Virus record (IMG/VR): IMGVR_UViG_3300002143_000137
Direction: 5' to 3' (one strand)
DNA: 56,131 nt
Source of the DNA: a virus
Part shown: positions 1 through 56,131 of the stretch, piece after piece
How the letters are laid out: every line of letters starts with the position of its first letter
Position numbering within the stretch: position 1 is the first letter of the stretch
Notes under the pieces: generated by a model
The model's input: the letters and a program-made list of their open reading frames with translations, nothing else
The model's database searches: none
Told to the model about the DNA's origin: nothing
Made by a program: the position numbers and the translations under genes

Positions 1-166
1 ACCGCTAGGTACATAAGCATCATCGACGGCTCGGTCGAGAGCCCGGTGAGCCCTAACCAGATCAAGCGGCATAAAGAGCGGATCATATAGGTCAGCCAAC
101 GTCGATTCATGGTGGACTGATCTAGTGTCGATGACTGCTTGAGCCGCTTTTTCAATTGCAGCTCTA
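1..166. repeat. Terminal overlap copy 1 (identical to 55966-56131)
   Basis: Base-for-base identity read directly. It lies inside a coding frame. Confidence 0.95.
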
Positions 167-3234: not shown

Positions 3235-3450
3235 ATGAGCTTACTGCTTGTAATCTTGGCTACTATCGCATCCATCGCCGCCCTCGGTGTCCATGGCCTT
3301 TGGGTCTTTTTAATTGGCTTAGGCTTATTGTCAGCCATAGAAAAAAAACACCCAGGGACGAACTTTGTCGAGGGTGCCGTTTCGATCATTGGCATTTTGA
3401 TTGTCGTAATGATGGCGGCGGAGATCCTTCTCCGCACCCTTCAAGGTTAA
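3235..3450 (+). CDS. Small hydrophobic membrane protein (71 aa, 2-3 predicted TM segments)
   Basis: MSLLLVILATIASIAALGVHGLWVFLIGLGLLSAIEKK...IIGILIVVMMAAEILL. No competing gene on the other strand. Stop overlaps the stop of the giant gene (TTAA). A hairpin at 3180-3212 lies upstream. Confidence 0.5.
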   Translation: MSLLLVILATIASIAALGVHGLWVFLIGLGLLSAIEKKHPGTNFVEGAVSIIGILIVVMMAAEILLRTLQG

Positions 3451-14963: not shown

Positions 14964-14994
14964 ATCCTAGGTAAGTCGAGGTTTGCGCGGAATC
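14964..14994 (-). promoter_or_regulatory. Late promoter-like motif copy 1 (upstream of the giant gene)
   Basis: Minus strand reads AGATTCCGCGC, 17 nt, TAGGAT. Confidence 0.45.
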
Positions 14995-15735
14995 TTACCG
15001 CTGCATTAGACTTCCATTTTTTGCTTGTAGCTGCTCGTAGTCGGCGCGCTTTTGTTGCACCTTAGTCCTTAGCGATTCATTCCAGCCGCCCAGCGTGTCG
15101 CCTACCATGGAGAACAACCCCTGTTTCTCTGCGACCTGCTGCGAGCCCGGCTGAGTTCCGCGTGCAGGCGGCAAAGCACCACTGCTCGGCACTGCATCGC
15201 CACCAGTGCTAGAAGGTGGTGGTGGCGCAGCAGAAAGCCGGATTGCCTCTGACACCGCCGCACCTACAGGCTTACCCATATCAATTAGGGTTTTCGCTCG
15301 CTGGCCTACCGGCGTACTAAAGTCGATGAATTGATTGCCATCACTAACGCCGCTAACAGACTTGGTTCCGTACTCGTCCGAACTTTCGACCGGCTTCCAT
15401 TTATTTTCTTTATCGGCGCGACCATCCCCTTTTAAGCCCTTGTCCAAGTAGTAGTCGGTCAATTCCTTTTTGCCGCGCACCTCTTCATCGACTCGGAATT
15501 TTGCCATTTCTCGCTCGGCCGCTACGCGCTTGTCAGCTTCTCCGGAGGCGTATTCGTTCTGCATCCCCATCAGCTCTTTGTCGCGCGCAAATTTACCATC
15601 AGCCGCCTCGGCCGAAATTTTTGCTAAGCGTTCATCGCGCATTTGCTGAAAGTGGTCTGCCAGGGCCATTTGCCCAGCTTGCGCAATCCCCTGGCCTAGT
15701 CCGGCCAATAACCCATACTCAGCCCTGCCCGGCAT
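14995..15735 (-). CDS. Hypothetical virion/ejection-module protein (246 aa)
   Basis: ORF in the late operon. GGAGGT lies 5 nt before the ATG at 15735. No recognisable motif. Confidence 0.6.
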   Translation of the reverse strand: MPGRAEYGLLAGLGQGIAQAGQMALADHFQQMRDERLAKISAEAADGKFARDKELMGMQNEYASGEADKRVAAEREMAKFRVDEEVRGKKELTDYYLDKGLKGDGRADKENKWKPVESSDEYGTKSVSGVSDGNQFIDFSTPVGQRAKTLIDMGKPVGAAVSEAIRLSAAPPPPSSTGGDAVPSSGALPPARGTQPGSQQVAEKQGLFSMVGDTLGGWNESLRTKVQQKRADYEQLQAKNGSLMQR

Positions 15736-19241: not shown

Positions 19242-19275
19242 GTATTAGGCCAATTTCCAGTGTTGCGCGGAATCT
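19242..19275 (-). promoter_or_regulatory. Late promoter-like motif copy 2
   Basis: Minus strand reads AGATTCCGCGC, then 18-20 nt, then CCTAATAC. Confidence 0.4.
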
Positions 19276-24712: not shown

Positions 24713-26451
24713 TATCTCTCCAATCGCCTCATGCTGTAGTGAATTGCAGCGCCATATATCGTGTGTGAGCCATCTTCGATTCCTTCTGAGGCGAATGTCA
24801 GCGACATATTCCTTGCAAGCCCCATCAAGCCTACTGGCTGCACCGAGTTAACTGGCGCAGCCCACTCAAACGCATCCCACTCCGATAAATCCCAAATGCC
24901 GCCGCCCGAGTGCTCGGTAACAATCTCAACGTAGGGCGTAATCGGCACTTCACTGTTTCCAAAGTCGTAGTCTGGTTTAACAAGAATATGCGCGGAATCT
25001 CCTTCTGTTTTGATATCGAACATCGCTTTGCGTAGTTGCTTTATGGAGGTCGGTGCTCGCATAAAATTAAATGCGATGGTGAAATGCGCAAGTATTGGCA
25101 AGCCCGCATATTTGTAGGAGCGATTTGAGCGAAATACTTTGCCATCGCTGCTGCCGAAGAAAAGCACCTCTTTCCCTTGCGCATCTTCGCCCGCTGCAGT
25201 CGTCAGCACTGGGTCGGCGTAGCGAACTGGCGTTATCCCTGCCAACTGATTCCCGGCGTAAGTGAAGTAATAGCCATCCTGGCCAAAGAACAATCGGTAT
25301 TGCGACTTTTCTTTTGACACGAACGAACCTGTCGGCAATAGGTCGGTGCGCAGATTTAGTAGAAGCGGGTTTATTAGGCGAGACTGCGATACCGCCTCGA
25401 AATCCCCGAAAGCTTGCGTGGTTTGTAGGTTTTGCACTCCACGGTTATCGAGAACTAATGAGTTGCCGCCCACTTCGCCAAACGAAAATGGCTTCATGCC
25501 GTGCTGGCCAAAAGGCTGCAATTCCCAGCTTAGGTAATCATTGCCGTACAGCATTTGAATGGAGTCATCGCAACCAACAGCAAGCACGCCACCAGGCACC
25601 CGATTAAGCCCATGAATGGTGTCGCCTACCGCAATTTCAGAGGCTCCCAAAATAGCGTCAAATATTAATGGCTCGCCCGGCGCGGAAATCATTAAGCTTC
25701 CGCTTCTGTAGGCGAGGAATAAGTGTTTTTTGTGGATTGCGATGTATTTCGGGTACTGACTGCTGATCGCCGATTTGATTGTCGCAAAGACAACACCATC
25801 AAACTCAAAAGCATCGCCTTCACCAGAAACTCCGTACATCCGCTCAAGGCCGTCTTGGCCAAAAAAGTTGCCGTTATCGAAGCTGTATCGACCGCCTTTC
25901 GGTAAGCTATTTGCGAATTGACTGCCATCCGCCTTCGCAATGACATCAGGTCCAATTTTCAAGTCCTCGCCGTCGATAAACGTACCGACAATGTTTGATA
26001 GCGCTAGCCTGCCGAAGCTATCACCCACACCATTAGAGCCACCAGCAAAAACAACACGCTCAATCTTTGCGCTGGCACCGGCTCCAGTGACCGTCGCGCC
26101 CTCAATAAAATCTTGAACGCCAAAATTAAAATCGAGCGAATAACCCAGGTCTATCGCCACCCAGCCGGCGCCAGACTCGCGAAACAATCCGCCTTCCGTT
26201 GCTTGATCCCGTATCGCGTGCAACTGCCCCCTAAATACGGTAACGCCACGGATTTCACCCTCACCCGGTACCGGGTGCGGTGAAATGGAGCCGTCATACA
26301 GCACATAGCCATCTATCCGGCGATACCCGCCTTCAGGAAGGCACTCGTAATTGAGACACTGGATCATTCGCCCCGCTGGCATCTTAAAATAAGGCGTGAC
26401 AACATCAAGACCGCCTTCCATTGCGAAATATTCAAAGGACACAGGCATCAT
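24712..26451 (-). CDS. Tail structural protein (579 aa, tubular-B-like by position)
   Basis: Position and size only. Confidence 0.45.
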   Translation of the reverse strand: MMPVSFEYFAMEGGLDVVTPYFKMPAGRMIQCLNYECLPEGGYRRIDGYVLYDGSISPHPVPGEGEIRGVTVFRGQLHAIRDQATEGGLFRESGAGWVAIDLGYSLDFNFGVQDFIEGATVTGAGASAKIERVVFAGGSNGVGDSFGRLALSNIVGTFIDGEDLKIGPDVIAKADGSQFANSLPKGGRYSFDNGNFFGQDGLERMYGVSGEGDAFEFDGVVFATIKSAISSQYPKYIAIHKKHLFLAYRSGSLMISAPGEPLIFDAILGASEIAVGDTIHGLNRVPGGVLAVGCDDSIQMLYGNDYLSWELQPFGQHGMKPFSFGEVGGNSLVLDNRGVQNLQTTQAFGDFEAVSQSRLINPLLLNLRTDLLPTGSFVSKEKSQYRLFFGQDGYYFTYAGNQLAGITPVRYADPVLTTAAGEDAQGKEVLFFGSSDGKVFRSNRSYKYAGLPILAHFTIAFNFMRAPTSIKQLRKAMFDIKTEGDSAHILVKPDYDFGNSEVPITPYVEIVTEHSGGGIWDLSEWDAFEWAAPVNSVQPVGLMGLARNMSLTFASEGIEDGSHTIYGAAIHYSMRRLER

Positions 26452-28920: not shown

Positions 28921-29940
28921 TTAATAAGTCTGGCCACGTCGACGCTTCATATCCCCGATAACATCGGTGCGCGTCTTCGGTGGCGGTTCGTCGTGTCCCA
29001 GTGTCATGGCTGCATTTGCGCCACTCACTGCCACCATCGCTTGCCGCTTTCTCTGCGAACGATCTGACAAACCGGCGTTGCCGCTCTTGGCTTTAAGCCA
29101 ATTGCGTACTCTGTTGCCCGCCTCTTGCATGATTTGGTAGGGCTCTAACTCCGGGTTTTCATTCGCTATTTCTAGCGTGAATCTGTCAGCCATTCCGAAT
29201 AGTTCCGGGTCGCTGGCAACATCGTTAAATTCAGCTTTAAACTTGCTTGCGGCACTTTGCAGTGCGCTTACTCGTTCACGCTGTTCAATTGCAGCATTTG
29301 CCGCTTGCTGCGCGCGCTGGTCGATTTCATCGTGACTTATCGCGTTATGGGTAGGCTGCTGCCGCCCGGCTGCAAATAATTTCGCCAGTGCTTTTTTGGC
29401 TGTTTCGTCATCGCCTGAATAAATTGCTTCCAGTGCGGTGCCTACTTCAGCTTCAACGTCATCGCTCGCGCCCGGTGTACCGGGTGGCTTGCTTTGCTGC
29501 TGCGCTTGTTGAGAGCGCAGCAAAAATTCCTGTTCTCGTTGCCGTAATTCCAAGTCCCTTCGTTCTAGCTCCCGCTCCATCTGGGATGCTGCCGCCAAGC
29601 GTTTATCGCCTGCCAAATACTTCTGAGCGTTGGCCACCATCTTAGATTTTGGTAGGTCTATTTTCTGACCATCGACAATCAAGTGGTAAACATCGTCTTC
29701 GTCATCCGGCTGCTCGCGCTTCGGTTCCAGCTCGGCAGTAGTGGTACCTTCACCATCGCCATCGCCCCCCTCTGCTCGCTCCTCGCGACGGCGGCGAACC
29801 AGGTCTTGCATTGCCGCGCTACGAGGATCTATGCCCGCGTTAACTTCCGCTTCAGCGCTTCCATTCTCGCTTGAAGTATTTGCCTCCATTTCATTGCGCG
29901 GAATGTCCCCATCTATATTTTTTGTGCTGTCTCTCGACAT
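28921..29940 (-). CDS. Scaffolding protein (339 aa)
   Basis: Acidic, E/Q/A/R-rich and coiled-coil-like. Lies between the portal and capsid genes. AGGAG SD present. Confidence 0.7.
   Translation of the reverse strand: MSRDSTKNIDGDIPRNEMEANTSSENGSAEAEVNAGIDPRSAAMQDLVRRRREERAEGGDGDGEGTTTAELEPKREQPDDEDDVYHLIVDGQKIDLPKSKMVANAQKYLAGDKRLAAASQMERELERRDLELRQREQEFLLRSQQAQQQSKPPGTPGASDDVEAEVGTALEAIYSGDDETAKKALAKLFAAGRQQPTHNAISHDEIDQRAQQAANAAIEQRERVSALQSAASKFKAEFNDVASDPELFGMADRFTLEIANENPELEPYQIMQEAGNRVRNWLKAKSGNAGLSDRSQRKRQAMVAVSGANAAMTLGHDEPPPKTRTDVIGDMKRRRGQTY
29875..29909 (-). promoter_or_regulatory. Late promoter-like motif copy 3 (inside the scaffold gene 5' end)
   Basis: Minus strand reads GGACATTCCGCGC, 17 nt, AATACT. 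Confidence 0.3.
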
Positions 29941-35228: not shown

Positions 35229-35264
35229 AATCTACTTGGTAAAAATTTTGCGCGGAATGTCCTA
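35229..35264 (-). promoter_or_regulatory. Late promoter-like motif copy 4 (upstream of terS)
   Basis: Minus strand reads AGGACATTCCGCGC, 17 nt, TAGATT. Confidence 0.45.
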
Positions 35265-37729: not shown

Positions 37730-37765
37730 ATATTGCTAGGAATTATTGTGGCGCGGAATGTCCTG
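37730..37765 (-). promoter_or_regulatory. Late promoter-like motif copy 5
   Basis: Minus strand reads AGGACATTCCGCGC, 17 nt, CAATAT. Confidence 0.35.
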
Positions 37766-42351: not shown

Positions 42352-43151
42352 AGTCCGTCCGCCCATGATCTATCGGTGTGCTTGCTCACGAAGCCGGCGC
42401 TATCCGGTGCCTTCACTGGCGGCGCCAACCACTCTGCTCCGTAGCGCTTCCACTGCTGCGGACAGCGCTGAAGAAACGAGGCGTCCCAAGAAGTCTTTGG
42501 CGCCCCACGATCACGCCAATAGGTTTTAAACTCGGCAAGCTGCTCGATGATGAATTGTTCGGGAATCTTGTGGATGACTTGCAAAAACTCCATCGTTGCC
42601 TCGGCCGGCAACCACTCGTCGATAACACTTTGGAAATTTTCAATCTTTCGCGCTGGCGGCGGTGCGTCAGCACCAATGTTGTAAATAGGTGAAGGTGAAG
42701 GTGAAGGTGAAGGTGAAGGTGAAGGTGAAGGGCATTCCTCATGCACTGCTTGAGGAATGCTTGGAGCATTACTTGAGGAGGTCTTTACAGGCTCACCCTC
42801 TTTATTTTTGTCTTTCCCCCACCTAGCCGCTGCTGCGCGCTCCGCTTTTTCCTTCGCGACACGCTTTTTCGCATACGCCGAACTCAATTCTTGTTCTATG
42901 CGCTTATGCTTCCAGCATCCTTGATCTATGCTAAAGAAATGCTCCAAGCATCCTCTAGCATTGCTCCAAGCATTCAATGACATGCGGGTAATAGACGCCA
43001 AGGTTTGATCGTTATCCGGTAACGGGCCATTCATCCAATAGTCCATTATCAGCAGCATGTAAGCACCGTGCATTTCGGTCGTTAGGCGCGACGTACCTGC
43101 TAGGTAGTCGCCGATATACAGCGGCATAAAGACATCAGGCTTATCCATCAC
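42348..43151 (-). CDS. DUF1376 (YdaU-like) replication-module protein with an (SP)7 linker
   Basis: FMPLYIGDYLAGTSRLTTEMHGAYMLLIMDYWMNGPLP. Confidence 0.7.
   Translation of the reverse strand: MMDKPDVFMPLYIGDYLAGTSRLTTEMHGAYMLLIMDYWMNGPLPDNDQTLASITRMSLNAWSNARGCLEHFFSIDQGCWKHKRIEQELSSAYAKKRVAKEKAERAAAARWGKDKNKEGEPVKTSSSNAPSIPQAVHEECPSPSPSPSPSPSPSPIYNIGADAPPPARKIENFQSVIDEWLPAEATMEFLQVIHKIPEQFIIEQLAEFKTYWRDRGAPKTSWDASFLQRCPQQWKRYGAEWLAPPVKAPDSAGFVSKHTDRSWADGL
42688..42729. repeat. Hexanucleotide microsatellite GGTGAA x7 (coding)
   Basis: Read directly. Encodes SPSPSPSPSPSPSP on the minus strand. Confidence 0.95.
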
Positions 43152-43438
43152 TCTTCTCCACGGTACTCAAGTGATTCGGCGCCCTTGATTGAAGCCATAT
43201 GCTGTTTGGCGATCAGAATGTAGGGCTCAATATCTTCCGGCCGGTAGCACTTGGTGTCGACTGGCACGACCTTTAATTCAAGCGTCTCTAAAAGAATTGC
43301 AATCTTTGGTAGCTGTTCGCTCTGGAGTCGACTAACGGTCGACTCAGATACATCCATCGCTGTCGCGCAGGCTGACTGTCCGACCTTTGCAAGTCGCTGC
43401 AAAATTAGCGATTCATACTTGCGGGCGTTTTCATGCAT
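43148..43438 (-). CDS. cII: CII-like transcriptional activator
   Basis: ESLILQRLAKVGQSACATAMDVSESTVSRLQSEQLPKIAILLETLEL aligns with the lambda CII HTH region. Confidence 0.65.
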   Translation of the reverse strand: MHENARKYESLILQRLAKVGQSACATAMDVSESTVSRLQSEQLPKIAILLETLELKVVPVDTKCYRPEDIEPYILIAKQHMASIKGAESLEYRGEE

Positions 43439-43462: not shown

Positions 43463-43702
43463 TTAACAGTTGTTGCTGGTAGTTTGCAGAGGAGCTTCAA
43501 TGTCATATCTTTCGGGGTAAAGAATTTCCAGCTCGCTCATTTCCCCATTTGAAGCCGCTGCCAATCGCTCAGCGAGTTTTTTCCCGCAAGAGCCCTTGGC
43601 TATTGCGATAAGCTTAAAATTATCGAAATTAGTACCGGCACTACTGCAGACGGCGCTTACACGGTCGCGATCATAGGTTTTGTAAAACTGTCGTGGAGTC
43701 AT
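43463..43702 (-). CDS. Cro-like early regulator (79 aa)
   Basis: First gene transcribed from the PR-like promoter, divergent from cI. GGAGGGA SD present. Confidence 0.55.
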   Translation of the reverse strand: MTPRQFYKTYDRDRVSAVCSSAGTNFDNFKLIAIAKGSCGKKLAERLAAASNGEMSELEILYPERYDIEAPLQTTSNNC

Positions 43703-43732: not shown

Positions 43733-43804
43733 ATATTAGTGTTTTAGTAACATTTGGTCAATATTACTTTACTACTAACTATTAGTGTTTTACTCCAATA
43801 CAAT
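43733..43804. promoter_or_regulatory. OR-like operator cluster with divergent PR-like and PRM-like promoters
   Basis: 21-bp sites at 43733, 43761 and 43779 (ATATTA-N9-TAATAT family). PR on the minus strand: TTGACC, 17 nt, TAATAT. PRM -10 TACAAT at 43799-43804, 7 nt before the cI ATG. Confidence 0.65.
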
Positions 43805-43810
43805 ACGATT

Positions 43811-44176
43811 ATGGAAATCACTGAAGTACGACGAGAAAACTTCCGCTACCTAGCCGACAAAATAGGCAGGAGCGCGCTCGCCCAAAAAATGGGTTACAAC
43901 GATGTGGGGTACATTAATGGCTTGCACGCAGGTCACGGCAGTTTTGGAGGGAGAACGGCGCGGAAAGTAGAAAAATCGCTAGGCCTTGAAAACGGGTGGA
44001 TGGATGTCGCTCACCCCGAAATTACATCTCTAGGAACGGATTCGGGTCAAATACCTGTCGAAGAATTGATAAGAATTTCTGGGCGTCTAAAGGATTTAGC
44101 CCCGGAAAACATTGCAGCGTTAGAGGCATTTCTTGACAGCTTGATTGCTCGAACAAATCAACAGCCTGGGAAATAA
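43811..44176 (+). CDS. cI: CI-like repressor, HTH only, no S24 peptidase domain (121 aa)
   Basis: MEITEVRRENFRYLADKIGRSALAQKMGYNDVGYINGL...RTARKVEKSLGLENGWMD. No SD upstream, so probably leaderless. Confidence 0.7.
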   Translation: MEITEVRRENFRYLADKIGRSALAQKMGYNDVGYINGLHAGHGSFGGRTARKVEKSLGLENGWMDVAHPEITSLGTDSGQIPVEELIRISGRLKDLAPENIAALEAFLDSLIARTNQQPGK

Positions 44177-44685: not shown

Positions 44686-44741
44686 ATATTACTGTTTTAC
44701 TAATATTTACCCTTGACTGAATATTTGTATTTTACTAATAT
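44686..44741 (+). promoter_or_regulatory. OL/PL-like element: two 21-bp operators around a near-consensus promoter
   Basis: ATATTACTGTTTTACTAATAT (44686) and ATATTTGTATTTTACTAATAT (44721). TTGACT at 44713, 17 nt, TAATAT at 44736. Confidence 0.7.
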
Positions 44742-48494: not shown

Positions 48495-49076
48495 ATGAGC
48501 CCAATACTGTTTTTCGACACCGAAACCACTGGCATACCTGCTTGGAAAGACCCTAGCGATTCCGAGCACCAGCCACACATCGTCCAGCTCGCCGCCATCG
48601 TGTGTGATGAAGACACCGGCAAGGTGCTTAGTATCATGGACGTGATTGTGCGGCCTACTGACGACTGGGAGATACCCGCAGAAACCACAGCGATTCATGG
48701 GATTACCCCGGAGATTGCTGAGACGTATGGCGTGCCGGAGCATCTTGCCCTGGATATGTTTTTAAACCTATGGCGCGGAAGCGTGTGTGTCGCGCACAAC
48801 TCCCCGTTTGACCAGCGCATCATTCGTATTGCAATGAGCCGGTTCAATAAAAACGAGGCAATGAAAGCCGCATGGAAATCGAGCGACGGCCACTTATGCA
48901 CAATGAGCCAAGCGCGGCGAATCATGGGCGGCAGCAAGCCGCCGAAGCTTAGCGAAGCCTACGAGCACTTTACTGGCAAGGTGCTTGAAGGCGCGCACTC
49001 AGCAATAGCAGACGCCAGAGCTTGCATGGAAATTTACTTTGAAATGAAAGGAAAAGGAGCAGCAATAGCATGTTGA
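48495..49076 (+). CDS. DnaQ-like 3'-5' exonuclease
   Basis: [10 protein letters not shown] (ExoI), [10 protein letters not shown] (ExoII), HSAIADARA (ExoIII). Confidence 0.85.
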
Positions 49077-49252
49077 TACTGACGCGCCGTATTGGCGAAA
49101 CCATGATGATCGGTGATGACGTAACCGTCACCGTTCTGGGCGTTAAAGGTAACCAGGTTCGCCTTGGCGTGACTGCGCCAAAGGAAGTGAGCGTGCATCG
49201 CGAAGAGATTTACGAGCGCATTCAAAACGAGAAAGAGGCACAGCCAGCATGA
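49070..49252 (+). CDS. csrA: Carbon storage regulator CsrA/RsmA homologue (60 aa)
   Basis: [55 protein letters not shown]. Confidence 0.95.
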
Positions 49253-51287: not shown

Positions 51288-51424
51288 GCGACCAACCTAA
51301 GCGCGAAGACTTTGAAAGCGAAGAGGCTTACGACGATGCGGTGGATGAATATCTTGAAGAGCAAGCGTTAAGTAATCCGAAGTTTGGCGGGGCATTTGCT
51401 GAGATTCTTGGAGGTGCGAAGTGA
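51284..51424 (+). CDS. Small acidic ORF (46 aa, below the track cutoff)
   Basis: ATGA coupling to the previous stop. Sequence MSDQPKREDFESEEAYDDAVDEYLEEQ... Confidence 0.35.
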   Translation: MSDQPKREDFESEEAYDDAVDEYLEEQALSNPKFGGAFAEILGGAK

Positions 51425-51473
51425 ACTACTGCAACTCATTACATTACCGAGCCAGGCGCGTATAGGAGGCATA

Positions 51474-51674
51474 ATGTTTCTCTCGCCAGAAGAAATACAC
51501 CAACTTACCGGATACGAACCAAATCAACGTGTGCGAATCGCTCGATGGCTAACAGTAAACGGCTATCCCTATACTACTAATCGCCTTGGCGACCCAGTAG
51601 TAAGGCGCTCTGACGTTGAAAGCAGCATTATTCCATCAACAGAACCCAATTTAGAATGGCTTAAATCAGCATGA
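51474..51674 (+). CDS. DUF4224-type excisionase-like protein (66 aa)
   Basis: TAGGAGG SD. MFLSPEEIHQLTGYEPNQRVRIARWLTVNGYPY. Overlaps the int start. Confidence 0.65.
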   Translation: MFLSPEEIHQLTGYEPNQRVRIARWLTVNGYPYTTNRLGDPVVRRSDVESSIIPSTEPNLEWLKSA

Positions 51675-52654
51675 GTCCTAAGCGATCAAGAACAAATAAA
51701 GGCCCAGAGCGCACCACCTTTAAAAACGGAGCCTGGTATTACCTTAAGCCGATTATAAAAGCGGGTAAAAACACCACCCAATGGATCCGGCTTGGCAAAA
51801 CCGAAAAGGAGATGTACCAACAACTTGCTGAACTGAAGTCAGAAGGTGCTGGCTTAATGGCCGCTATTATTGAGCGATACCGCAAGGAAATCATCGTTAA
51901 GAAAGCAGTCAACACCCAGAACGCACAGGGCAAGCAGCTAGACCGTCTTAAGAGAGCCTTTGGCCATATGCGCCCTAGCGACTTAAGACCTTCTCACATC
52001 GCAAAATATCACGATTTAGTGGGCGATAAAGCTCCATTCCAAGCGAACCGCGAATTGGCTCTGATGACGCACGTCTGCAAATACGCGGTCCGCTGGGGCC
52101 ATATCGACGACAACCCATGCCGCGAAGTTCAACGGTTCCCCGAGCAAGCCCGAGAACGCTACATAAGCGATGCCGAATACACCGCCGCCCGTGATATTGC
52201 GCCACTGTGGGTACAAATCATCATGGACCTAGCATACGTGACCGGCCAACGTAGAATCGACCTACTAAGCCTCACACGCAACCAAATCACCGACCAAGGC
52301 ATACTCATAAAACAGAGCAAGACCGGCGCCAACCTACTCATAGAATGGACGCCAGACCTTGAAAGCATCATCACCAGGGCACAAACCGAACTATTACCGG
52401 CCGGTACGGCATCTATCTACATTATCTGCGACAGTAGCGGTCAAAAAAGAAGAGACGCCGCATTCACAACCGCATGGACACGCTTAATGAACAAAGCCAT
52501 CAAGGCCGACGTAATTACGGAAAAATTCCAATTCAGGGATATTCGAGCCAAGGCAGGATCAGACAGTAGCGGTGAACAGCTGGGGCATAAATCAGCGACA
52601 ATACTCAATAAGCACTATAAGCGCCTACCAAAAAGAGTTAAGCCGACTCAATAA
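51671..52654 (+). CDS. int: Tyrosine integrase
   Basis: GQRRIDLLSL (Arg box) and LGHKSATILNKHYKR (H-x-x-R...Y region). Confidence 0.9.
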   Translation: MSPKRSRTNKGPERTTFKNGAWYYLKPIIKAGKNTTQWIRLGKTEKEMYQQLAELKSEGAGLMAAIIERYRKEIIVKKAVNTQNAQGKQLDRLKRAFGHMRPSDLRPSHIAKYHDLVGDKAPFQANRELALMTHVCKYAVRWGHIDDNPCREVQRFPEQARERYISDAEYTAARDIAPLWVQIIMDLAYVTGQRRIDLLSLTRNQITDQGILIKQSKTGANLLIEWTPDLESIITRAQTELLPAGTASIYIICDSSGQKRRDAAFTTAWTRLMNKAIKADVITEKFQFRDIRAKAGSDSSGEQLGHKSATILNKHYKRLPKRVKPTQ

Positions 52655-52874
52655 GCTAAAAGAAAGACAGCCACACCATAAGTTTCTCTCGCGAAACACA
52701 TGTCACAGCCCTCGCGCAGCCCTTTTGCTATTTCTATTTCGTAAGCTATTGATATAACAGCATAGGTTTCAGGAAATTACAGGAGGGATACTCAAAATCA
52801 CAATTTAAATTCTCCAACTCCATTTTAATAATTTCGCGTTTCCCTCGCCTAAACCTTTTTTTGTAATCATTTGC

Positions 52875-52911
52875 TTGCCGGAAGGAAAATATACTGTTAA
52901 AGTGTACAGTA
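52875..52911 (+). promoter_or_regulatory. LexA (SOS) box overlapping a sigma70-like promoter
   Basis: TACTGTTAAAGTGTACAGTA at 52892-52911 (CTGT-N8-ACAG). TTGCCG at 52875, 17 nt, TAAAGT at 52898. Confidence 0.7.
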
Positions 52912-53016
52912 ATTAAAAAGGCTGCAACTCGTGGGGAGTGGCAGCCTTCGTTAGAACCCAGCTATTAAGCCTTTTTCATTGTTAATAAGGCACTGGCATC
53001 GTTTTTGGTAAGCGAA

Positions 53017-53595
53017 ATGATAGAGAAACATATTGAATTAGTCAAGAATCAGATCAGTTTTCACGAATATCGTGCAGGCTCCTCCAAAAGCGAGCATGCG
53101 CGCAAGAAGCAAGAAACACTCGTAGCTGGATTCACCGACCTCTTAAAAGACCTCGTTGAACTAAACGGTCATCCGGTCGCAAACGGGTGCAGCAGCATAC
53201 CCGACTTTCTCAAAGCAGTATTAACCGCAGCAGACCCACGCAAACCAACTTCTGACCCAGTACAACTATTAGGCGACCTCTCGCCTAACGATTTAGAGGG
53301 CCTCCCAGACGACGTCCTCGCCAAACTAGGCCTACGCCCCTCAGACAAGCAAGATTTCCTTATTGTCGACATCATCAAAGAGCTTGGTGGCGCGGCTATC
53401 ATTACTAAAATCCTCATTAGAATATATCAGCGCACTGGTGAAGCACCAGAGCGAAATACGCTCGGCGCTAAGCTATACCGAATGACTGCCAAAGGCCTAA
53501 TCAAAAGCTCAAATTTAGGAAAAGGTTGGTACTGCCTGCCTGAGCACGAAAGCGCCAGCGACAAAAATGATGATGAGGACTCAAGCGAGGACTAA
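53017..53595 (+). CDS. SOS-box-controlled protein with a C-terminal wHTH-like domain (192 aa; antirepressor candidate)
   Basis: First ORF downstream of the LexA box. DFLIVDIIKELGGAAIITKILIRIYQRTGEAPERNTLGAKLYRMTAKGLI. Acidic tail. Confidence 0.6.
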   Translation: MIEKHIELVKNQISFHEYRAGSSKSEHARKKQETLVAGFTDLLKDLVELNGHPVANGCSSIPDFLKAVLTAADPRKPTSDPVQLLGDLSPNDLEGLPDDVLAKLGLRPSDKQDFLIVDIIKELGGAAIITKILIRIYQRTGEAPERNTLGAKLYRMTAKGLIKSSNLGKGWYCLPEHESASDKNDDEDSSED

Positions 53596-53813
53596 ATGAG
53601 AAGAAATTAAGGCTGGCTCAGGCGGCCGAGAAGTAACGGAGGAATGGTTTAGTTGGACGCTGCACCCTCCCCCGCTAATCCTGAGTTCATGCTGTGGTGT
53701 CGAGGCTAGCCACGGCAGCCGTCAGCAATAAACGATCAACATCGAAATTATTGCACATATTGATGGTTTTCGCCAATTCGGTCTCTAACACTTTTAGAAT
53801 TGAGGTGTTAGGA

Positions 53814-53924
53814 ATGAAGCATTGTACTTATCCTATGCCGGTATTCGTGCATGCATATACTCGCCGCCGCCTAGGCCGCTGGGAAAATGTATCCGCACAT
53901 TGCCGTAGTAATCCCCGCACATAA
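53814..53924 (+). CDS. Small basic ORF (36 aa, below the track cutoff)
   Basis: GAGGTG SD. MKHCTYPMPVFVHAYTRRRLGRWENVSAHCRSNPRT. An intrinsic terminator follows immediately. Confidence 0.4.
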   Translation: MKHCTYPMPVFVHAYTRRRLGRWENVSAHCRSNPRT

Positions 53925-53932
53925 GTGCGCTC

Positions 53933-53958
53933 AAGGGGCGATCTTCGCCCCCTTTTTT
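53933..53958 (+). terminator. Rho-independent terminator
   Basis: GGGGCG-ATCTT-CGCCCC followed by CTTTTTT. Confidence 0.75.
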
Positions 53959-54073
53959 ATGCCGGAAACTGTCTAATAGTGCAACTAAGCCCCAATAGAA
54001 TCAATCACTTATAAACCGACCCCATTAGACAAAAACACCGCAAGCAATTGATTTTTATACAATGTCGCAGAAA

Positions 54074-54118
54074 CTGTTAATCATTGGGTCGCTGGTTCGA
54101 GCCCAGCAGGCGGAGCCA
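54074..54118 (+). other. attP core: 3' half of a tRNA-Asn(GTT), from the anticodon loop to CCA; not a complete tRNA
   Basis: CTGTTAA loop, TCATT, GGGTC variable loop, GCTGG-TTCGAGC-CCAGC T-arm, AGGCGGA acceptor strand, G, CCA. There is no matching 5' acceptor, D-arm or anticodon stem upstream. Confidence 0.75.
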
Positions 54119-54127
54119 AACAAATCA

Positions 54128-54160
54128 AAGGGTTGCATCGAAAGATGTAACCCTTTTTTA
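54128..54160 (+). terminator. Hairpin terminator directly after the tRNA fragment
   Basis: AAGGGTTGCATC-GAAA-GATGTAACCCTT followed by TTTT. Confidence 0.75.
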
Positions 54161-54202
54161 TTGGTTGTCTAATAGGTGTCTAATAAAAAATGTAGGCATA
54201 AC

Positions 54203-55018
54203 TCAATCGTTGCTCGCTGATCGCTCCTCTATCTTCGCAATTGCAGCATCAAAGGCTTCCGTTGCGACACTAGGCCTATTCCAGAAATATGTGCGCCGCT
54301 TAAGAATTGAAAGCAGTTCAGAATCGGCCACCGGATCAAATACCAATGGCTCATTTTCTCGGGCATAAGGATATAGCCGCTCACATTTTGCGTGGACCAT
54401 CGCTACATTAAGTATTTCGGAGACAACATCACTCCTCCCATAGCCGGCACTTCGCTCATTAAGCCCGCCAACCCTAGAGTGGATAATTTGCAACTTTGAA
54501 AGTATTGACGCCATAAACTCCGCAACATTCGGCGGAGCATGGACAATGCAGTCGCGAAATACAGCTTGATAAGATGCCGGAAGTTTAGGCAATTCAAGTA
54601 CAAGCGTATCCGGGTCGTTCTCATCAAAATAGCCCTCCCTTGGCAAAGACTGATAAAGGCCCGAAAAAATGACATTCACATCATCAAAGTAGCCATGCAA
54701 CTCTGACAAAGACGCGGTTAAAAAAACCTTAGCAGCTACAAACTCTCTGCGACGCTGCTCCTCGACGAGTTCCTTTTGCTGAGCGACTTGCCTTCGAGCC
54801 GCCCACAAGGCTATAAAACTTGCTCCGAGGGCAATCATCGCAGCATTGAATGTCTGCCAGCGCCCCCAAACTTCTTGAACATAGCCCCAATCCCATCCGC
54901 TAATAGCAAACGGCCAAACAACCATCGCGATGAAGTACAAGGCAAACGGCAGAATCACAAAAAAAAGGAATATCCAAGCAGCTGGCTTCTTTAAGATCCC
55001 GTTCAATTCCTGCACCAC
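54203..55018 (-). CDS. Membrane protein: 2 N-terminal TM segments plus about 190 aa of helical cytoplasmic domain, no recognisable family
   Basis: AAWIFLFFVILPFALYFIAMVVWPFAI and FNAAMIALGASFIALWAA. The start overlaps the nuclease gene by 16 nt. Confidence 0.7.
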   Translation of the reverse strand: MVQELNGILKKPAAWIFLFFVILPFALYFIAMVVWPFAISGWDWGYVQEVWGRWQTFNAAMIALGASFIALWAARRQVAQQKELVEEQRRREFVAAKVFLTASLSELHGYFDDVNVIFSGLYQSLPREGYFDENDPDTLVLELPKLPASYQAVFRDCIVHAPPNVAEFMASILSKLQIIHSRVGGLNERSAGYGRSDVVSEILNVAMVHAKCERLYPYARENEPLVFDPVADSELLSILKRRTYFWNRPSVATEAFDAAIAKIEERSASND

Positions 55019-55452
55019 GCTGGTTTTTTCCCTCCATCATACGGAACTGCATGTCCAGACCTGATCAGGCTTTCACCCAAACTAACGCCATCTATCCAGA
55101 CCTCGGCCAACAACCTGAAATATTTGTCTCGTTCCAATGCCCGCAACTCAACCGATTTCCCAGCCCGGAGCATAGACACGGCATATTGTTTCGCCGCCCT
55201 GGCCGCGTACTTTTCTGCGTGGCATTTACCTCGTAGCTCTGGGGTATCAACCCCTTTAACGCGAACAGAAATACTCTCCCCCACTATTGCAGGCCAATTA
55301 TTAATATCGACTTTGAACGAATCCCCGTCGTAAATAGTGCGGATCGCCGAGACAGTGACAGCGCCGTATCCTTCTGCATATACTAATTGAGGCGCTAACA
55401 ACGTCAAATATAGGGAAAGCCATCGAGCGATAACATTACGACGCCGACTCAC
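55003..55452 (-). CDS. Secreted staphylococcal-nuclease (thermonuclease) homologue
   Basis: Signal peptide MSRRRNVIARWLSLYLTLLAPQLVYA. Catalytic pattern DGDSF...VRVKGVDTPE...DKYFRLLAEV. GTGA overlap with the upstream stop. Confidence 0.8.
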   Translation of the reverse strand: MSRRRNVIARWLSLYLTLLAPQLVYAEGYGAVTVSAIRTIYDGDSFKVDINNWPAIVGESISVRVKGVDTPELRGKCHAEKYAARAAKQYAVSMLRAGKSVELRALERDKYFRLLAEVWIDGVSLGESLIRSGHAVPYDGGKKPAWCRN

Positions 55453-55845: not shown

Positions 55846-56131
55846 TCACACCGGCTTTTTCCGTTTAGCTTTGGGCCTATCTACAGGAAGCAATGATGTG
55901 ACCTTCTCGTAAAGCTCGAAAAGGAACGCCACCCTCTCTGCCTCGGTGGCCCAGCTTTTCTTGCCACCGCTAGGTACATAAGCATCATCGACGGCTCGGT
56001 CGAGAGCCCGGTGAGCCCTAACCAGATCAAGCGGCATAAAGAGCGGATCATATAGGTCAGCCAACGTCGATTCATGGTGGACTGATCTAGTGTCGATGAC
56101 TGCTTGAGCCGCTTTTTCAATTGCAGCTCTA
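55846..56131 (-). CDS. C-terminal end of the MmeI-family enzyme (55966-56131 duplicates 1-166)
   Basis: The frame continues ...DDAYVPSG then GKKSWATEAERVAFLFELYEKVTSLLPVDRPKAKRKKPV, with the stop at 55846-55848. Confidence 0.85.
   Translation of the reverse strand, partial: RAAIEKAAQAVIDTRSVHHESTLADLYDPLFMPLDLVRAHRALDRAVDDAYVPSGGKKSWATEAERVAFLFELYEKVTSLLPVDRPKAKRKKPV
55966..56131. repeat. Terminal overlap copy 2 (identical to 1-166)
   Basis: Read directly. Confidence 0.95.

What the first reader, a model, noticed from the sequence alone, without database searches (positions are those of the whole stretch)
52875..53595. Perfect LexA box in front of an orphan wHTH gene, with a cI that lacks a protease domain: antirepressor-type induction?
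TACTGTTAAAGTGTACAGTA (52892-52911) matches the CTGT-N8-ACAG SOS box, with both palindromic arms TACTGT/ACAGTA intact. It covers the -10 (TAAAGT) of a TTGCCG-17-TAAAGT promoter.

The first ORF downstream (53017-53595) has a winged-helix-like C-terminal half and an acidic tail.

The cI-like repressor (121 aa) has only an HTH plus a short C-terminal segment. It has no S24 (Ala-Gly / Ser-Lys) autocleavage domain, so RecA cannot inactivate it directly.

In coliphage 186 (Tum) and the Gifsy phages, induction in this situation is achieved by a LexA-repressed antirepressor. This gene is the obvious candidate here.

A long hairpin (52918-52948) lies in the predicted 5' leader.
Basis: partly seen in the sequence, partly recalled or inferred. 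Interest (0 to 1): 0.65.

Follow-up and report, generated by a model that had tools for sequence, protein, structure and literature searches.

The report
SOS-gated, antisense-guarded winged-helix phage gene
A temperate phage carries, between its integrase and its attachment site, a gene for a DNA/RNA-binding winged-helix protein that looks doubly locked (a LexA "DNA-damage" operator on its promoter plus a conserved antisense RNA over its leader); it may or may not be the phage's induction trigger, and its relatives elsewhere sit next to odd tRNA genes with changeable anticodons.

Summary
This covers the perfect TACTGT-N8-ACAGTA box over the -10 of a TTGCCG-17-TAAAGT promoter, the 192-aa ORF with a winged-helix C-terminal half and acidic tail, the 121-aa cI without an S24 domain, and the leader hairpin.

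The box is the only CTGT-N8-ACAG in this 55,965-bp circular phage genome. It scores like genuine E. coli SOS boxes and its core is kept in the closest relatives. SOS control is therefore likely.

The antirepressor reading is not backed by any positive evidence.
- The protein resembles no known antirepressor.
- Its roughly 725-cluster family lies mostly outside phages, often beside IS1595 transposases and once at the end of a Tn7-like element.
- Its basic winged helix looks nucleic-acid-binding.
- A 95%-identical copy travels with xis-int, not with this immunity region.

New here: a sigma-70 promoter is embedded antisense in codons 1-10. It is conserved at synonymous sites across the family. 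The "leader hairpin" is best read as the terminator of the resulting ~100-nt antisense RNA. LexA plus a cis-antisense RNA is the logic of symE/symR.

Most relatives also carry a tRNA-Ser-like gene with a variable anticodon just upstream of the ORF. The window copy lacks it.

The parts
52842..52862 (+). Conserved upstream element: CCCTCGCC followed by a T7 tract (UP-element-like), about 15-35 nt upstream of the -35
   Evidence: The CTCGC and T-run columns are invariant in the alignment of window, L001-3, L004 and L005. Similar TTTCTCTCGC motifs lie near the promoters of distant family loci. Its function was not tested.
52875..52903 (+). Sense sigma-70-type promoter TTGCCG-17-TAAAGT (8/12 match)
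   Evidence: Sequence. Positionally conserved as TTGACG-17-TATTCT in L004 and TTGCGC-17/18-TAGAAT in L005. Not reported by the 9/12 scanner.
52892..52911 (.). LexA (SOS) box TACTGTTAAAGTGTACAGTA, covering the -10 and the predicted start site
   Evidence: The CTGT-N8-ACAG core is kept in L001-3 and L038, where the box reads CACTGTTAAAGTATACAGGA (17.98 bits). This holds despite about 27% divergence in the 30 nt upstream.
52918..52948 (-). Stem-loop. Best read as the intrinsic terminator of the antisense RNA, with a U-tract from 52917 to about 52905 on the minus strand. It is also a 5' stem-loop in the sense mRNA.
   Evidence: On the minus strand the stem is followed by UUUUUAAUU. On the plus strand it is followed by UCGUUAG. 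A hairpin at the same place in L001, L004, L005, L008, L009, L011, L017 and others has a different sequence (compensatory changes). Where the automatic picker found the hairpin correctly, the A-rich 5' flank exceeds the T-rich 3' flank.
52961..52997 (.). Small conserved stem-loop: CCAG-CTATTAA-(inner hairpin GCCTT...AAGGC)-CA-CTGG
   Evidence: GCTATTAAGCC and GGCAC.GG are invariant in three lineages. Compensatory changes occur in both stems (CCAG/CTGG becomes CGG/CCG; GCCTT/AAGGC becomes GCCCC/GGGGC). In tRNA-bearing relatives the counterpart is CCGGCTATGGNGCCGG.
53017..53045 (-). Antisense sigma-70 promoter embedded in codons 1-10: -35 TTGACT (53045-53040), 17 nt, -10 TATCAT (53022-53017). 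Predicted start near 53010.
   Evidence: 10/12 match. The same promoter is found in 20 of 24 family loci. The Val codon inside the -35 is GTC in 24/24 loci, against 30% elsewhere in these ORFs. The codon supplying 'TA' of the -10 is NTA in 20/24, against 20% for Leu/Ile codons elsewhere.
52905..53010 (-). Predicted cis-antisense RNA of about 100 nt, complementary to the whole 5' UTR and ribosome-binding site of the ORF
   Evidence: It folds into a single-stranded 5' anti-RBS segment, a small stem-loop and a terminator. Free energy is -31.2 kcal/mol and the z-score is -3.3. Its ends are inferred from the promoter and the terminator. No expression data exist.
53017..53595 (+). 192-aa protein: N-terminal helical hairpin (probable dimerisation), acidic linker carrying a DLEGLPxxxLxxL motif, basic winged helix (residues 105-176) and acidic tail
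   Evidence: No Pfam, PHROG, NCBIfam or PADLOC family and no PDB sequence match.
53935..53958 (+). Intrinsic terminator (GGGGCGA-TCT-TCGCCCC then T6). Probable end of the LexA-controlled transcript.
   Evidence: Sequence. Conserved in L038. A short ORF with an SD lies between the ORF and this terminator at 53815-53925. That ORF was not analysed.
54073..54120 (+). attP core: the 3' half of a tRNA-Asn(GTT) gene, from anticodon loop to CCA
   Evidence: The sequence reads ACTGTTAATCA..GGTTCGAGCCCAGCAGGCGGAGCCA. The comparison with E. coli tRNA-Asn is from memory. Contigs L001, L002 and L003, from three samples, all end inside it, about 506 nt after the ORF.
43811..44176 (+). cI-like repressor, 121 aa, with no S24 domain. 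Operators ATTAGT-N5-ACTAAT lie at 43735-43797 (three) and 44688-44739 (two).

Best explanation
The region is a self-contained accessory cassette. It lies between int and attP of a complete temperate phage and is kept silent by two locks.

Lock 1 (inferred from sequence): host LexA binds the 20-bp box that overlaps the -10 and start site of the sense promoter.

Lock 2 (inferred; strongly supported by comparative sequence): a near-consensus promoter is embedded antisense in the first ten codons. It makes an RNA of about 100 nt that is complementary to the entire 5' UTR and ribosome-binding site. This RNA ends at the 'leader hairpin', which is a proper terminator only on the minus strand.

After DNA damage LexA is cleaved. 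Sense transcripts then outnumber the antisense RNA and the protein is made.

The protein is most likely a dimeric nucleic-acid-binding protein, with a helical-hairpin dimeriser and a basic winged helix. I infer that its unscheduled expression is harmful.

The cassette therefore works like symE/symR: an SOS-induced, antisense-guarded DNA-binding 'toxin-like' protein. It also resembles other type I toxin-antitoxin or addiction cassettes carried at the edges of mobile elements.

The LexA lock is a recent add-on of this phage lineage. Whether the protein's action in this phage includes switching the prophage to lytic growth is open.
For: LexA box:
- It is unique and high-scoring.
- Its core is conserved in relatives despite flanking divergence.

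Antisense promoter:
- 10/12 match in the window.
- Present in 20 of 24 family loci.
- Conserved at synonymous sites: GTC in 24/24 loci against a 30% background, and NTA in 20/24 against 20%.

Terminator orientation and antisense RNA fold. Compensatory changes in both leader stem-loops.

Protein:
- Confident winged-helix model.
- Basic winged-helix domain across the family.

Context:
- Family members lie at the edges of mobile elements. They follow an integrase, lie beside an IS1595 transposase (8 of about 20 loci), follow TniB-TniQ-TniQ, or sit in a defence-island-like region.
- The cassette lies between int and attP, closed by its own terminator.

symE precedent: a LexA site, with the SymR promoter embedded in the ORF (PMC1891008). 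SymE is a DNA-binding, nucleoid-condensing protein (PMC11894785).
Against: - No expression data exist. Neither transcript has been seen.
- The sense promoter is only an 8/12 match.
- The host is unknown, so its LexA motif is only inferred. cI relatives occur in Ralstonia, Burkholderia and Acidovorax phages and terminase relatives in gammaproteobacterial phages.
- Only two independent versions of the box are available: the window, and the identical L001-3/L038.
- Toxicity is pure inference from the tight control and the mobile-element context.
- The protein has no homology to SymE.
- The family loci are not phylogenetically independent. The codon statistics therefore overstate significance; I estimate about 15 independent lineages.
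- In tRNA-bearing relatives the antisense RNA would have to be about 230-250 nt long. This is unusual.
Confidence: 0.5

Rival explanations
1. The ORF is a LexA-repressed antirepressor that binds the 121-aa non-cleavable cI and so induces the prophage, as Tum (186), GfoA/GftA (Gifsy) and AntC (N15) do.
For: - It carries the only LexA box in the genome.
- cI lacks S24, and no other S24 protein or known antirepressor domain is found among 56 ORFs.
- Known antirepressor genes also lie outside the immunity region under LexA control (PMC3121763).
- From my own knowledge: antisense RNA control of antirepressors has precedents (P22 sar, P1 c4).
- The acidic linker and tail could mimic DNA.
Against: - No similarity to any known antirepressor or to DinI.
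- The family is mostly non-phage, beside IS1595 or Tn7-like genes, with no cI homolog in any of the roughly 35 loci.
- The LexA box is confined to the closest relatives.
- In L038 the 95%-identical ORF and the same int follow a different early region with no cI, cro or cII homolog in 10 kb.
- The conserved basic recognition helix and wing argue for a nucleic-acid ligand.
- The Nitrosomonas prophage copy sits among head genes without a LexA box.
Confidence: 0.2
2. The ORF is an ordinary, non-toxic transcription regulator of the mobile element. It could be an autorepressor or a regulator of recombinase, excision or neighbouring genes. It would bind DNA motifs such as the upstream CTCGC element. 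LexA simply times its expression to the SOS response.
For: - The winged-helix fold is closest to PadR, MarR, Fur and RosR regulators.
- Conserved upstream CTCGC motif.
- Recurrent position next to integrases and transposases.
- N-terminal dimerisation-like hairpin.
Against: - No inverted or direct repeat operator was demonstrated.
- The position of the CTCGC motif relative to the promoter varies between loci.
- A plain regulator would not obviously need a conserved antisense promoter overlapping its own start codon.
- Its orientation relative to the transposase is not fixed.
Confidence: 0.2
3. The LexA-like palindrome is a chance or vestigial sequence and the gene is not SOS-regulated. The cassette is controlled only by its antisense RNA.
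For: - The CTGT-N8-ACAG core alone is expected 0.5 times per window.
- The spacer (TAAAGTGT) is less AT-rich than the consensus.
- 1.3% of random 56-kb sequences reach the PWM score.
- Homologs elsewhere lack a box.
- The host LexA motif is unverified.
Against: - All 12 arm bases match; about 0.003 such sites are expected.
- The box lies exactly over the -10 and start site of a positionally conserved promoter.
- The core is retained in L001-3, while the flanks and the upstream spacer diverged.
Confidence: 0.12

Closest known systems
symE/symR of E. coli (SOS-induced type I toxin-antitoxin-like locus; Kawano et al. 2007, PMC1891008)
   Same: - A LexA site at the sense promoter.
- A constitutive cis-antisense RNA whose promoter is embedded in the 5' end of the ORF and which covers the 5' UTR and RBS.
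[quoted passage not shown]
   Different: - SymE has an AbrB/MazE fold and 113 aa. Here the protein is a coiled-coil plus winged helix of 192 aa, with no sequence or fold relationship.
- Toxicity is unproven here.
- This cassette is phage- and mobile-element-borne.
- In most relatives it includes a tRNA gene.
LexA-controlled antirepressors: Tum (phage 186), GfoA/GftA/GfhA (Gifsy), AntC (N15) (Lemire et al. 2011, PMC3121763)
   Same: - The phage repressor is small and lacks the Ala-Gly/Ser-Lys cleavage module.
- A single LexA-boxed promoter lies outside the immunity region.
- The gene has no other obvious function.
   Different: - No homology to these proteins. Tum is 146 aa with a DinI-like half, and the Gifsy proteins are about half that size.
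- This family is widespread outside phages.
- The ORF does not co-occur with the cI family.
- It is predicted to bind nucleic acid.
Antisense-controlled antirepressors (P22 ant/sar; P1 ant/c4).
   Same: A small antisense RNA over the translation start of a gene whose leaky expression would be deleterious to the lysogen.
   Different: Those systems are controlled by Arc/Mnt or by C1, not by LexA. The proteins are unrelated.
Oligomerisation domain + linker + C-terminal DNA-binding domain proteins such as Rok (B. subtilis) and H-NS-like silencers carried by mobile elements
   Same: - Size and architecture: about 190 aa, an N-terminal helical oligomeriser, a flexible linker and a C-terminal winged helix.
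- The Rok DNA-binding domain and phage Rok-like proteins are among the fold hits.
   Different: - The Foldseek E-values are only 0.004-0.09 and any winged helix scores similarly.
- There is no sequence relationship.
- The acidic tail and the DLEGLP motif are not Rok features.
allo-tRNAs and other tRNA-Ser-like genes with non-serine anticodons (Mukai et al. 2017, PMC5389517; review PMC7609411). This applies to the relatives, not to the window.
   Same: - Long variable arm and a G73-type serine identity.
- Highly variable anticodons, including GCG, GUC and Leu.
- Found in soil metagenomes near transposable elements and toxin-antitoxin genes.
   Different: - The tRNAs found here fold as ordinary 7/5 class II tRNAs, not 8/4 or 9/3.
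- They sit in a fixed module, 18-32 nt upstream of this ORF family.
- By text search I did not find that association described.

Membership tests
Gamma/Betaproteobacterial LexA operator (SOS box) | Palindrome CTGT-N8-ACAG with TACTGT/ACAGTA arms, scoring within the range of proven sites | tested here: met
   12/12 arm bases match. It is the only such site in the window.
Gamma/Betaproteobacterial LexA operator (SOS box) | Overlaps the promoter or start site of the regulated gene | tested here: met
   It covers the -10 TAAAGT (52898-52903) and the predicted +1 of a positionally conserved promoter.
Gamma/Betaproteobacterial LexA operator (SOS box) | The host encodes a LexA that recognises this motif, and binding occurs | not testable with these tools
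   The host is unknown. Phage relatives point to Beta- or Gammaproteobacteria.
LexA-controlled phage antirepressor (Tum / Gifsy Gfo-Gft / AntC) | The cognate repressor lacks the RecA-stimulated autocleavage domain | tested here: met
   cI is 121 aa. It has no Pfam hit and no Peptidase_S24. It hits PHROG repressor families.
LexA-controlled phage antirepressor (Tum / Gifsy Gfo-Gft / AntC) | Sequence or fold relationship to a known antirepressor (Tum/DinI half, Gifsy Gfo/Gft, Ant, KilA-C, Bro) | tested here: not met
   No hit in Pfam, PHROGs or NCBIfam for the ORF or for 76 family members. The fold hits are generic winged helices.
LexA-controlled phage antirepressor (Tum / Gifsy Gfo-Gft / AntC) | Co-occurrence with the repressor family it inactivates | tested here: not met
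   No cI homolog in any family locus. L038 has a 95% identical ORF but a different early region. About 2 kb of that contig was not seen.
LexA-controlled phage antirepressor (Tum / Gifsy Gfo-Gft / AntC) | Binds the repressor and causes induction | not testable with these tools
   This needs genetics or biochemistry.
Type I toxin-antitoxin-like locus of the symE/symR kind | A cis-encoded antisense RNA overlapping the 5' UTR and RBS, with its promoter inside the ORF | tested here: met
   This is a prediction only. TTGACT-17-TATCAT lies at 53045-53017. It is conserved in 20 of 24 loci, with synonymous-site constraint. The terminator follows on the minus strand.
Type I toxin-antitoxin-like locus of the symE/symR kind | The protein is toxic when the antisense RNA is removed or the gene is overexpressed | not testable with these tools
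   Inferred only from the double lock and the mobile-element context.
Type I toxin-antitoxin-like locus of the symE/symR kind | Homology to SymE (AbrB/MazE fold) | tested here: not met
   The model is a helical hairpin plus a winged helix. Two of 76 members give marginal MazE_antitoxin hits (best E = 0.006), which I do not count.
Winged-helix transcription regulators (PadR/MarR/Fur-like) | Winged helix-turn-helix fold with a basic recognition helix and wing | tested here: met
   pLDDT is above 90 over residues 108-173. Foldseek probabilities are 0.96-1.0 to LmrR, MarR-type, RosR, Fur and LexA-NTD. The pI is 9.7.
Winged-helix transcription regulators (PadR/MarR/Fur-like) | Sequence membership of a curated family | tested here: not met
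   The best hit is PaaX at E = 0.08, below the cut-off. Penicillinase_R is hit by 2 of 76 members at E of about 1e-3.
allo-tRNA (for the tRNA genes next to relatives of the ORF) | 12-bp acceptor/T branch in an 8/4 or 9/3 arrangement | tested here: not met
   RNAfold and ARAGORN cloverleaves show 7-bp acceptor and 5-bp T stems. They match the standard tRNA model RF00005 at 49-58 bits.
allo-tRNA (for the tRNA genes next to relatives of the ORF) | Serine-type body (long variable arm, G73) combined with diverse non-serine anticodons | tested here: met
   The genes are 93-98 nt long. G73 occurs in 13 of 16. There are nine different anticodons in 16 loci. No such tRNA is present in the window.

The most novel reading that the evidence does not exclude
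The ORF would be the protein component of a so far undescribed mobile-element module, made of these parts in order:
- a promoter;
- a bidirectional hairpin;
- a small CTAT-loop hairpin;
- a tRNA-Ser-like gene whose anticodon changes from locus to locus (Leu, Arg, Asp, Pro, Val, Ile, Gly);
- a winged-helix protein;
- an antisense RNA that starts inside the ORF and runs back across the tRNA.

Such a tRNA would insert serine at the wrong codons. The module could therefore be a mistranslation-based toxin, addiction or abortive-infection device. It would be held in check by the antisense RNA and the winged-helix protein.

The phage copy would be a derivative that has lost the tRNA and has been rewired to the SOS response.
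Probability: 0.3. Interest if true: 0.85.

Novelty: new variant of a known kind. Interest (0 to 1): 0.62.

Why it matters
For this phage, the cassette marks the one place where the SOS signal can enter a genome whose repressor cannot be cleaved. This makes a simple deletion or induction experiment informative whatever the outcome.

More generally, it gives a second, unrelated example of the symE/symR design (LexA plus an ORF-embedded antisense promoter), this time on mobile DNA.

It also assigns a regulatory architecture to a family of at least 725 protein clusters that has no annotation.

The same family is the fixed neighbour of tRNA-Ser-like genes with variable anticodons and of IS1595 transposases. 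That gives a concrete genetic handle on the open question of what natural 'mistranslating' tRNAs are for.

Tried and rejected
- DNA similarity of 52600-53700 to 50,697 phage records: no match.
- Rfam on 52600-54300: only sub-threshold hits. One, at 54116-54163, is the terminator-like hairpin next to attP.
- Pfam, PHROGs, NCBIfam and PADLOC searches of the ORF and of 76 family members, plus a PDB sequence search with their alignment profile: nothing above threshold.
- Foldseek against PDB (two models) and BFVD (first model): only generic winged helices, none with E <= 0.001.
- A sigma-54 reading of the conserved GGCAC-N5 motif in the leader. I rejected it by eye because the -12 element does not fit.
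- A search for cI operators (ATTAGT-N5-ACTAAT) near the ORF promoter: none, so cI does not obviously control it.
- A search for a LexA box in the first 28.5 kb of a phage with a related short cI, Acidovorax phage ACF1: none there, so no guidance.
- A family-wide locus search with the 76-sequence alignment failed because the alignment was too diverse. It succeeded with a 15-sequence sub-alignment.
- Automatic hairpin picking mis-called several loci. For those loci the orientation argument rests on reading the sequences.
- Literature searches for a described tRNA/winged-helix/IS1595 module found nothing relevant.
Full report
**Setting**

The window is a circularly assembled genome. Bases 1-166 repeat exactly at 55966-56131, giving a unit length of 55,965 bp.
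- Structural and late genes run on the minus strand from about 43.4 kb down to 3.4 kb.
- The immunity region holds a cII-like gene (43148-43438, minus), a cro-position gene (43463-43702, minus) and a 121-aa cI-like gene (43811-44176, plus).
- Five copies of an ATTAGT-N5-ACTAAT operator lie at 43735-43797 and 44688-44739.
- The early-left operon on the plus strand encodes RecT, a YqaJ exonuclease, SSB, CsrA and others. It ends with xis (51384-51674) and int (51671-52654).

The finding lies just after int.

The attachment site is not between int and the ORF. At 54073-54120 lies the 3' half of a tRNA-Asn(GTT) gene, from anticodon loop to CCA. Three contigs from three samples that carry a 95%-identical copy of the ORF all end inside that sequence, about 506 nt after the ORF.

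The order is therefore xis, int, LexA box with ORF, terminator (53935-53958), attP. In the prophage the gene stays at the int end. This is a typical place for accessory cassettes.

**The observation**

- The box TACTGTTAAAGTGTACAGTA is the only CTGT-N8-ACAG in the window and the only exact TACTGT-N8-ACAGTA. I expect about 0.003 of the latter from base composition.
- I built a PWM from 19 E. coli SOS boxes written from memory. It gives the site 18.9 bits. The training sites range from 13.0 to 28.1 bits with a median of 21.0. The next best site in the window scores 11.7 bits. Four of 300 random 56-kb sequences reach 18.9.
- The box covers the -10 of TTGCCG-17-TAAAGT. That promoter is only an 8/12 match and was not reported by the scanner. 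However, a promoter of the same geometry stands at the same place in homologous loci whose ORFs are only 52-56% identical.
- The closest relatives (L001-3 and L038, identical to one another here) read CACTGTTAAAGTATACAGGA. One of the 16 core bases has changed, against 8 of the 30 bases just upstream. This is modest evidence for constraint, from only two independent versions.
- More distant homologs have no box. This includes one in a Nitrosomonas prophage.
- The host is unknown. cI relatives occur only in Ralstonia, Burkholderia and Acidovorax phages. Terminase relatives occur mostly in phages of Gammaproteobacteria (Vibrio, E. coli, Pseudoalteromonas). So a CTGT-N8-ACAG-type LexA is plausible but not shown.

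**The protein**

The ORF has no Pfam, PHROG, NCBIfam or PADLOC family and no PDB sequence relative.

A word-indexed search found only five relatives. A full profile search found 725 cluster representatives, of which 417 have E <= 1e-10. Nearly all of the 150 listed are 100-240 aa (most 160-210), and most match over nearly the whole length.

With a 76-sequence alignment AlphaFold2 gives pLDDT 88. The model has four parts:
- a long helical hairpin (residues 2-51) and a short helix;
- a low-confidence acidic linker carrying the conserved D-L-x-G-L-P-x-E-L-L motif;
- a winged helix (residues 108-173);
- an acidic tail.

Foldseek finds only generic winged-helix DNA binders, none better than E = 0.004. 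They include LmrR/PadR, MarR-type, RosR, Fur, Rok and the LexA N-domain.

The nearly invariant residues lie in the third helix and the wing (R146, Y154, R155, M156, K159, G170, Y172). The domain is basic, with pI 9.7 and a family median of 9.6. I read this as a dimeric nucleic-acid-binding protein.

**A conserved antisense promoter**

The scanner's best hit in the region is on the minus strand, inside the first ten codons: TTGACT-17-TATCAT at 53045-53017, a 10/12 match. The same promoter is present in 20 of 24 family loci.
- The -35 is the reverse complement of the F/L-V-K/N codons. The valine codon is GTC in 24 of 24 loci, against 30% of valine codons elsewhere in these ORFs.
- The 'TA' of the -10 comes from an NTA codon (ATA, CTA, TTA or GTA) in 20 of 24 loci, against 20% among Leu/Ile codons elsewhere.

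The loci are not all independent; I estimate about 15 lineages. Even so, proteins only 25-50% identical should not share synonymous sites unless the DNA itself is constrained.

**The leader hairpin**

A transcript from this promoter would start near 53010 and run back across the ribosome-binding site and the whole leader.

The 'long hairpin' at 52918-52948 is followed by UUUUUAAUU on the minus strand and by UCGUUAG on the plus strand. In the other loci the hairpin has a different sequence but the same place. Where the automatic picker found it correctly, its 5' flank is A-rich and its 3' flank is not T-rich. So it is a terminator for the minus strand.

The predicted RNA of about 100 nt folds with a free 5' anti-RBS segment, a small stem-loop and the terminator. 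Its free energy is -31.2 kcal/mol and its z-score is -3.3.

The small stem-loop (52961-52997) is itself conserved, with compensatory changes in both of its stems.

The sense 5' UTR (about 52910 to 53016) and the antisense RNA are almost coextensive.

**How it most likely works**

In the lysogen LexA occludes the sense promoter. The constitutive antisense RNA neutralises any leak-through by pairing with the leader. After sustained DNA damage the sense transcripts exceed the antisense pool and the protein is made.

All steps are inferred from sequence. The antisense part has strong comparative support.

This is the design of E. coli symE/symR. There the sense promoter has a LexA site, the SymR promoter is embedded in the symE ORF and the RNA blocks translation (PMC1891008). 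SymE is now regarded as a DNA-binding, nucleoid-condensing protein that is harmful when overproduced (PMC11894785). The proteins are unrelated, so this is a functional analogy and not membership.

**Is it the antirepressor?**

- Gifsy repressors (136 aa, no cleavage motif) are inactivated by small antirepressors. These are encoded outside the immunity region under LexA control. Tum and AntC work likewise (PMC3121763).
- The window encodes no S24 protein and no recognisable Ant, Bro, KilA, DinI or Tum domain among 56 non-structural ORFs.

But nothing positive links this ORF to cI, and several results point away.
- It has no similarity to known antirepressors.
- Its family lives mainly outside phages. 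Members follow an IS1595-type transposase (L017-19) or lie within about 1 kb of one in 8 of about 20 independent loci, in varying orientations. Others follow TniB-TniQ-TniQ of a Tn7-like element, sit in a defence-island-like region, or sit among head genes of a Nitrosomonas prophage.
- None of the fetched loci encodes a cI homolog.
- In L038 the xis-int-ORF block is 86.5% identical in DNA to the window, but the 8 kb upstream are unrelated. That stretch encodes RdgC, HNH, GerE and a P4-cII-like gene, with no cI, cro or cII homolog.

I put the antirepressor model at about 0.2. It is easily tested by deletion.

**What the relatives add**

In 16 of the 24 family loci I compared in detail (plus near-identical copies of some of them), a 93-98-nt class II tRNA gene lies between the small hairpin and the ORF. 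It ends 18-32 nt before the start codon.
- ARAGORN and the Rfam tRNA model (49-58 bits against a threshold of 29) both call these genes.
- The body is tRNA-Ser-like: a long variable arm, G73 in 13 of 16, and usually an encoded CCA.
- The anticodon differs between loci: UAG six times, GCG, GUC and UGG twice each, and GAU, GCU, AUC, UAC and UCC once each.

Seryl-tRNA synthetase does not read the anticodon (established knowledge; PMC7609411). Such tRNAs would therefore misinsert serine.

They resemble the 'allo-tRNAs' of Mukai et al. (PMC5389517) in anticodon spectrum and in their soil and mobile-element setting. But they fold as ordinary 7/5 tRNAs. I found no description of their fixed linkage to this ORF family, to its antisense promoter or to IS1595.

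The window's clade (window, L001-3, L004, L005) has no tRNA. The window copy is thus a tRNA-less derivative that acquired a LexA box.

**Verdict**

- SOS control is likely (about 0.75).
- A cis-antisense RNA is likely (about 0.7).
- The antirepressor assignment is unproven and, on context, unlikely.

The finding is a new variant of a known regulatory design, wrapped around an uncharacterised and widespread protein family. It carries a potentially much more novel tRNA-linked module in its relatives.

Noticed in passing
window 1-166 and 55966-56131: An exact 166-bp terminal direct repeat. The window is a circularly assembled 55,965-bp phage genome, so the region after int is phage DNA and not host flank.
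   Followed up: yes
window 54073-54120; L038 11050-11085: The 3' half of a tRNA-Asn(GTT) gene is the likely attP core. Three related contigs from different samples all break inside it.
   Followed up: partly
L011 9886-9979, L017 2253-2346, L020 2163-2258, L022-L025, L027-L035 (upstream of each ORF homolog): Class II, tRNA-Ser-like genes of 93-98 nt with nine different anticodons. Each lies 18-32 nt upstream of a homolog of the window ORF. Each is preceded by a conserved CCGGCTATGGNGCCGG hairpin and a large hairpin. The window has no such tRNA.
   Followed up: partly
L004 4310-5347, L017 1144-2106, L020 2994-3950, L022 944-1144, L028 3690-4496, L034 1241-1666, L036 2436-3233: IS1595/ISXO2-type DDE transposase genes lie within about 1 kb of the ORF homolog (about 1.5 kb in L036) in 8 of about 20 independent loci. 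Their relative orientation varies. In L014-16 the homolog instead follows TniB-TniQ-TniQ.
   Followed up: partly
window 24988-25002, 29894-29908, 35248-35262, 37749-37763, and the GCGCGGAATCT part of the 20-nt repeats at 14976-14995 and 19256-19275: The motif GCGCGGAAT(G/C)TCC recurs six times in the late/structural region, several times at gene junctions. It could be a late promoter, an activator site or another regulatory site.
   Followed up: no
window 3447-14927 (-): A single 3,826-aa ORF next to tail genes (a Phage Tail Collar domain is encoded somewhere among the scanned ORFs). This is very large for a 56-kb phage.
   Followed up: no
window 49070-49252 (+); also L001 1304-1444: A phage-encoded CsrA homolog (E = 1e-26) in the early-left operon. 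It is conserved (81%) in the related contig although the neighbouring genes differ.
   Followed up: no
window 55846-56064 (-): A 72-aa ORF matching only the C-terminal domain of MmeI-type restriction-modification enzymes (PF20467, E = 1e-17). It appears to be a gene remnant near the assembly junction.
   Followed up: no
window 55003-55452 (-) and 54203-55018 (-): A staphylococcal-nuclease-like protein with a signal-peptide-like N-terminus. It overlaps by 16 nt the start of a 271-aa predicted membrane protein of no known family. This may be an accessory or exclusion pair between attP and the tail genes.
   Followed up: no
window 53815-53925 (+): A short basic ORF (MKHCTYPMPVF...) with a good SD lies between the winged-helix ORF and the terminator at 53935-53958. 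It is conserved in L002, L003 and L038. It may be co-transcribed with the LexA-controlled gene.
   Followed up: no
window 42687-42731 (-): A tandem 6-nt repeat (GAAGGT on the + strand) encodes a (PS)n linker in the replication-initiator-like protein (DUF1376).
   Followed up: no
L008 1257-1344: An 88-nt 'tRNA-Pro(TGG)' lies downstream, not upstream, of the ORF homolog in a locus whose leader lacks a tRNA.
   Followed up: no
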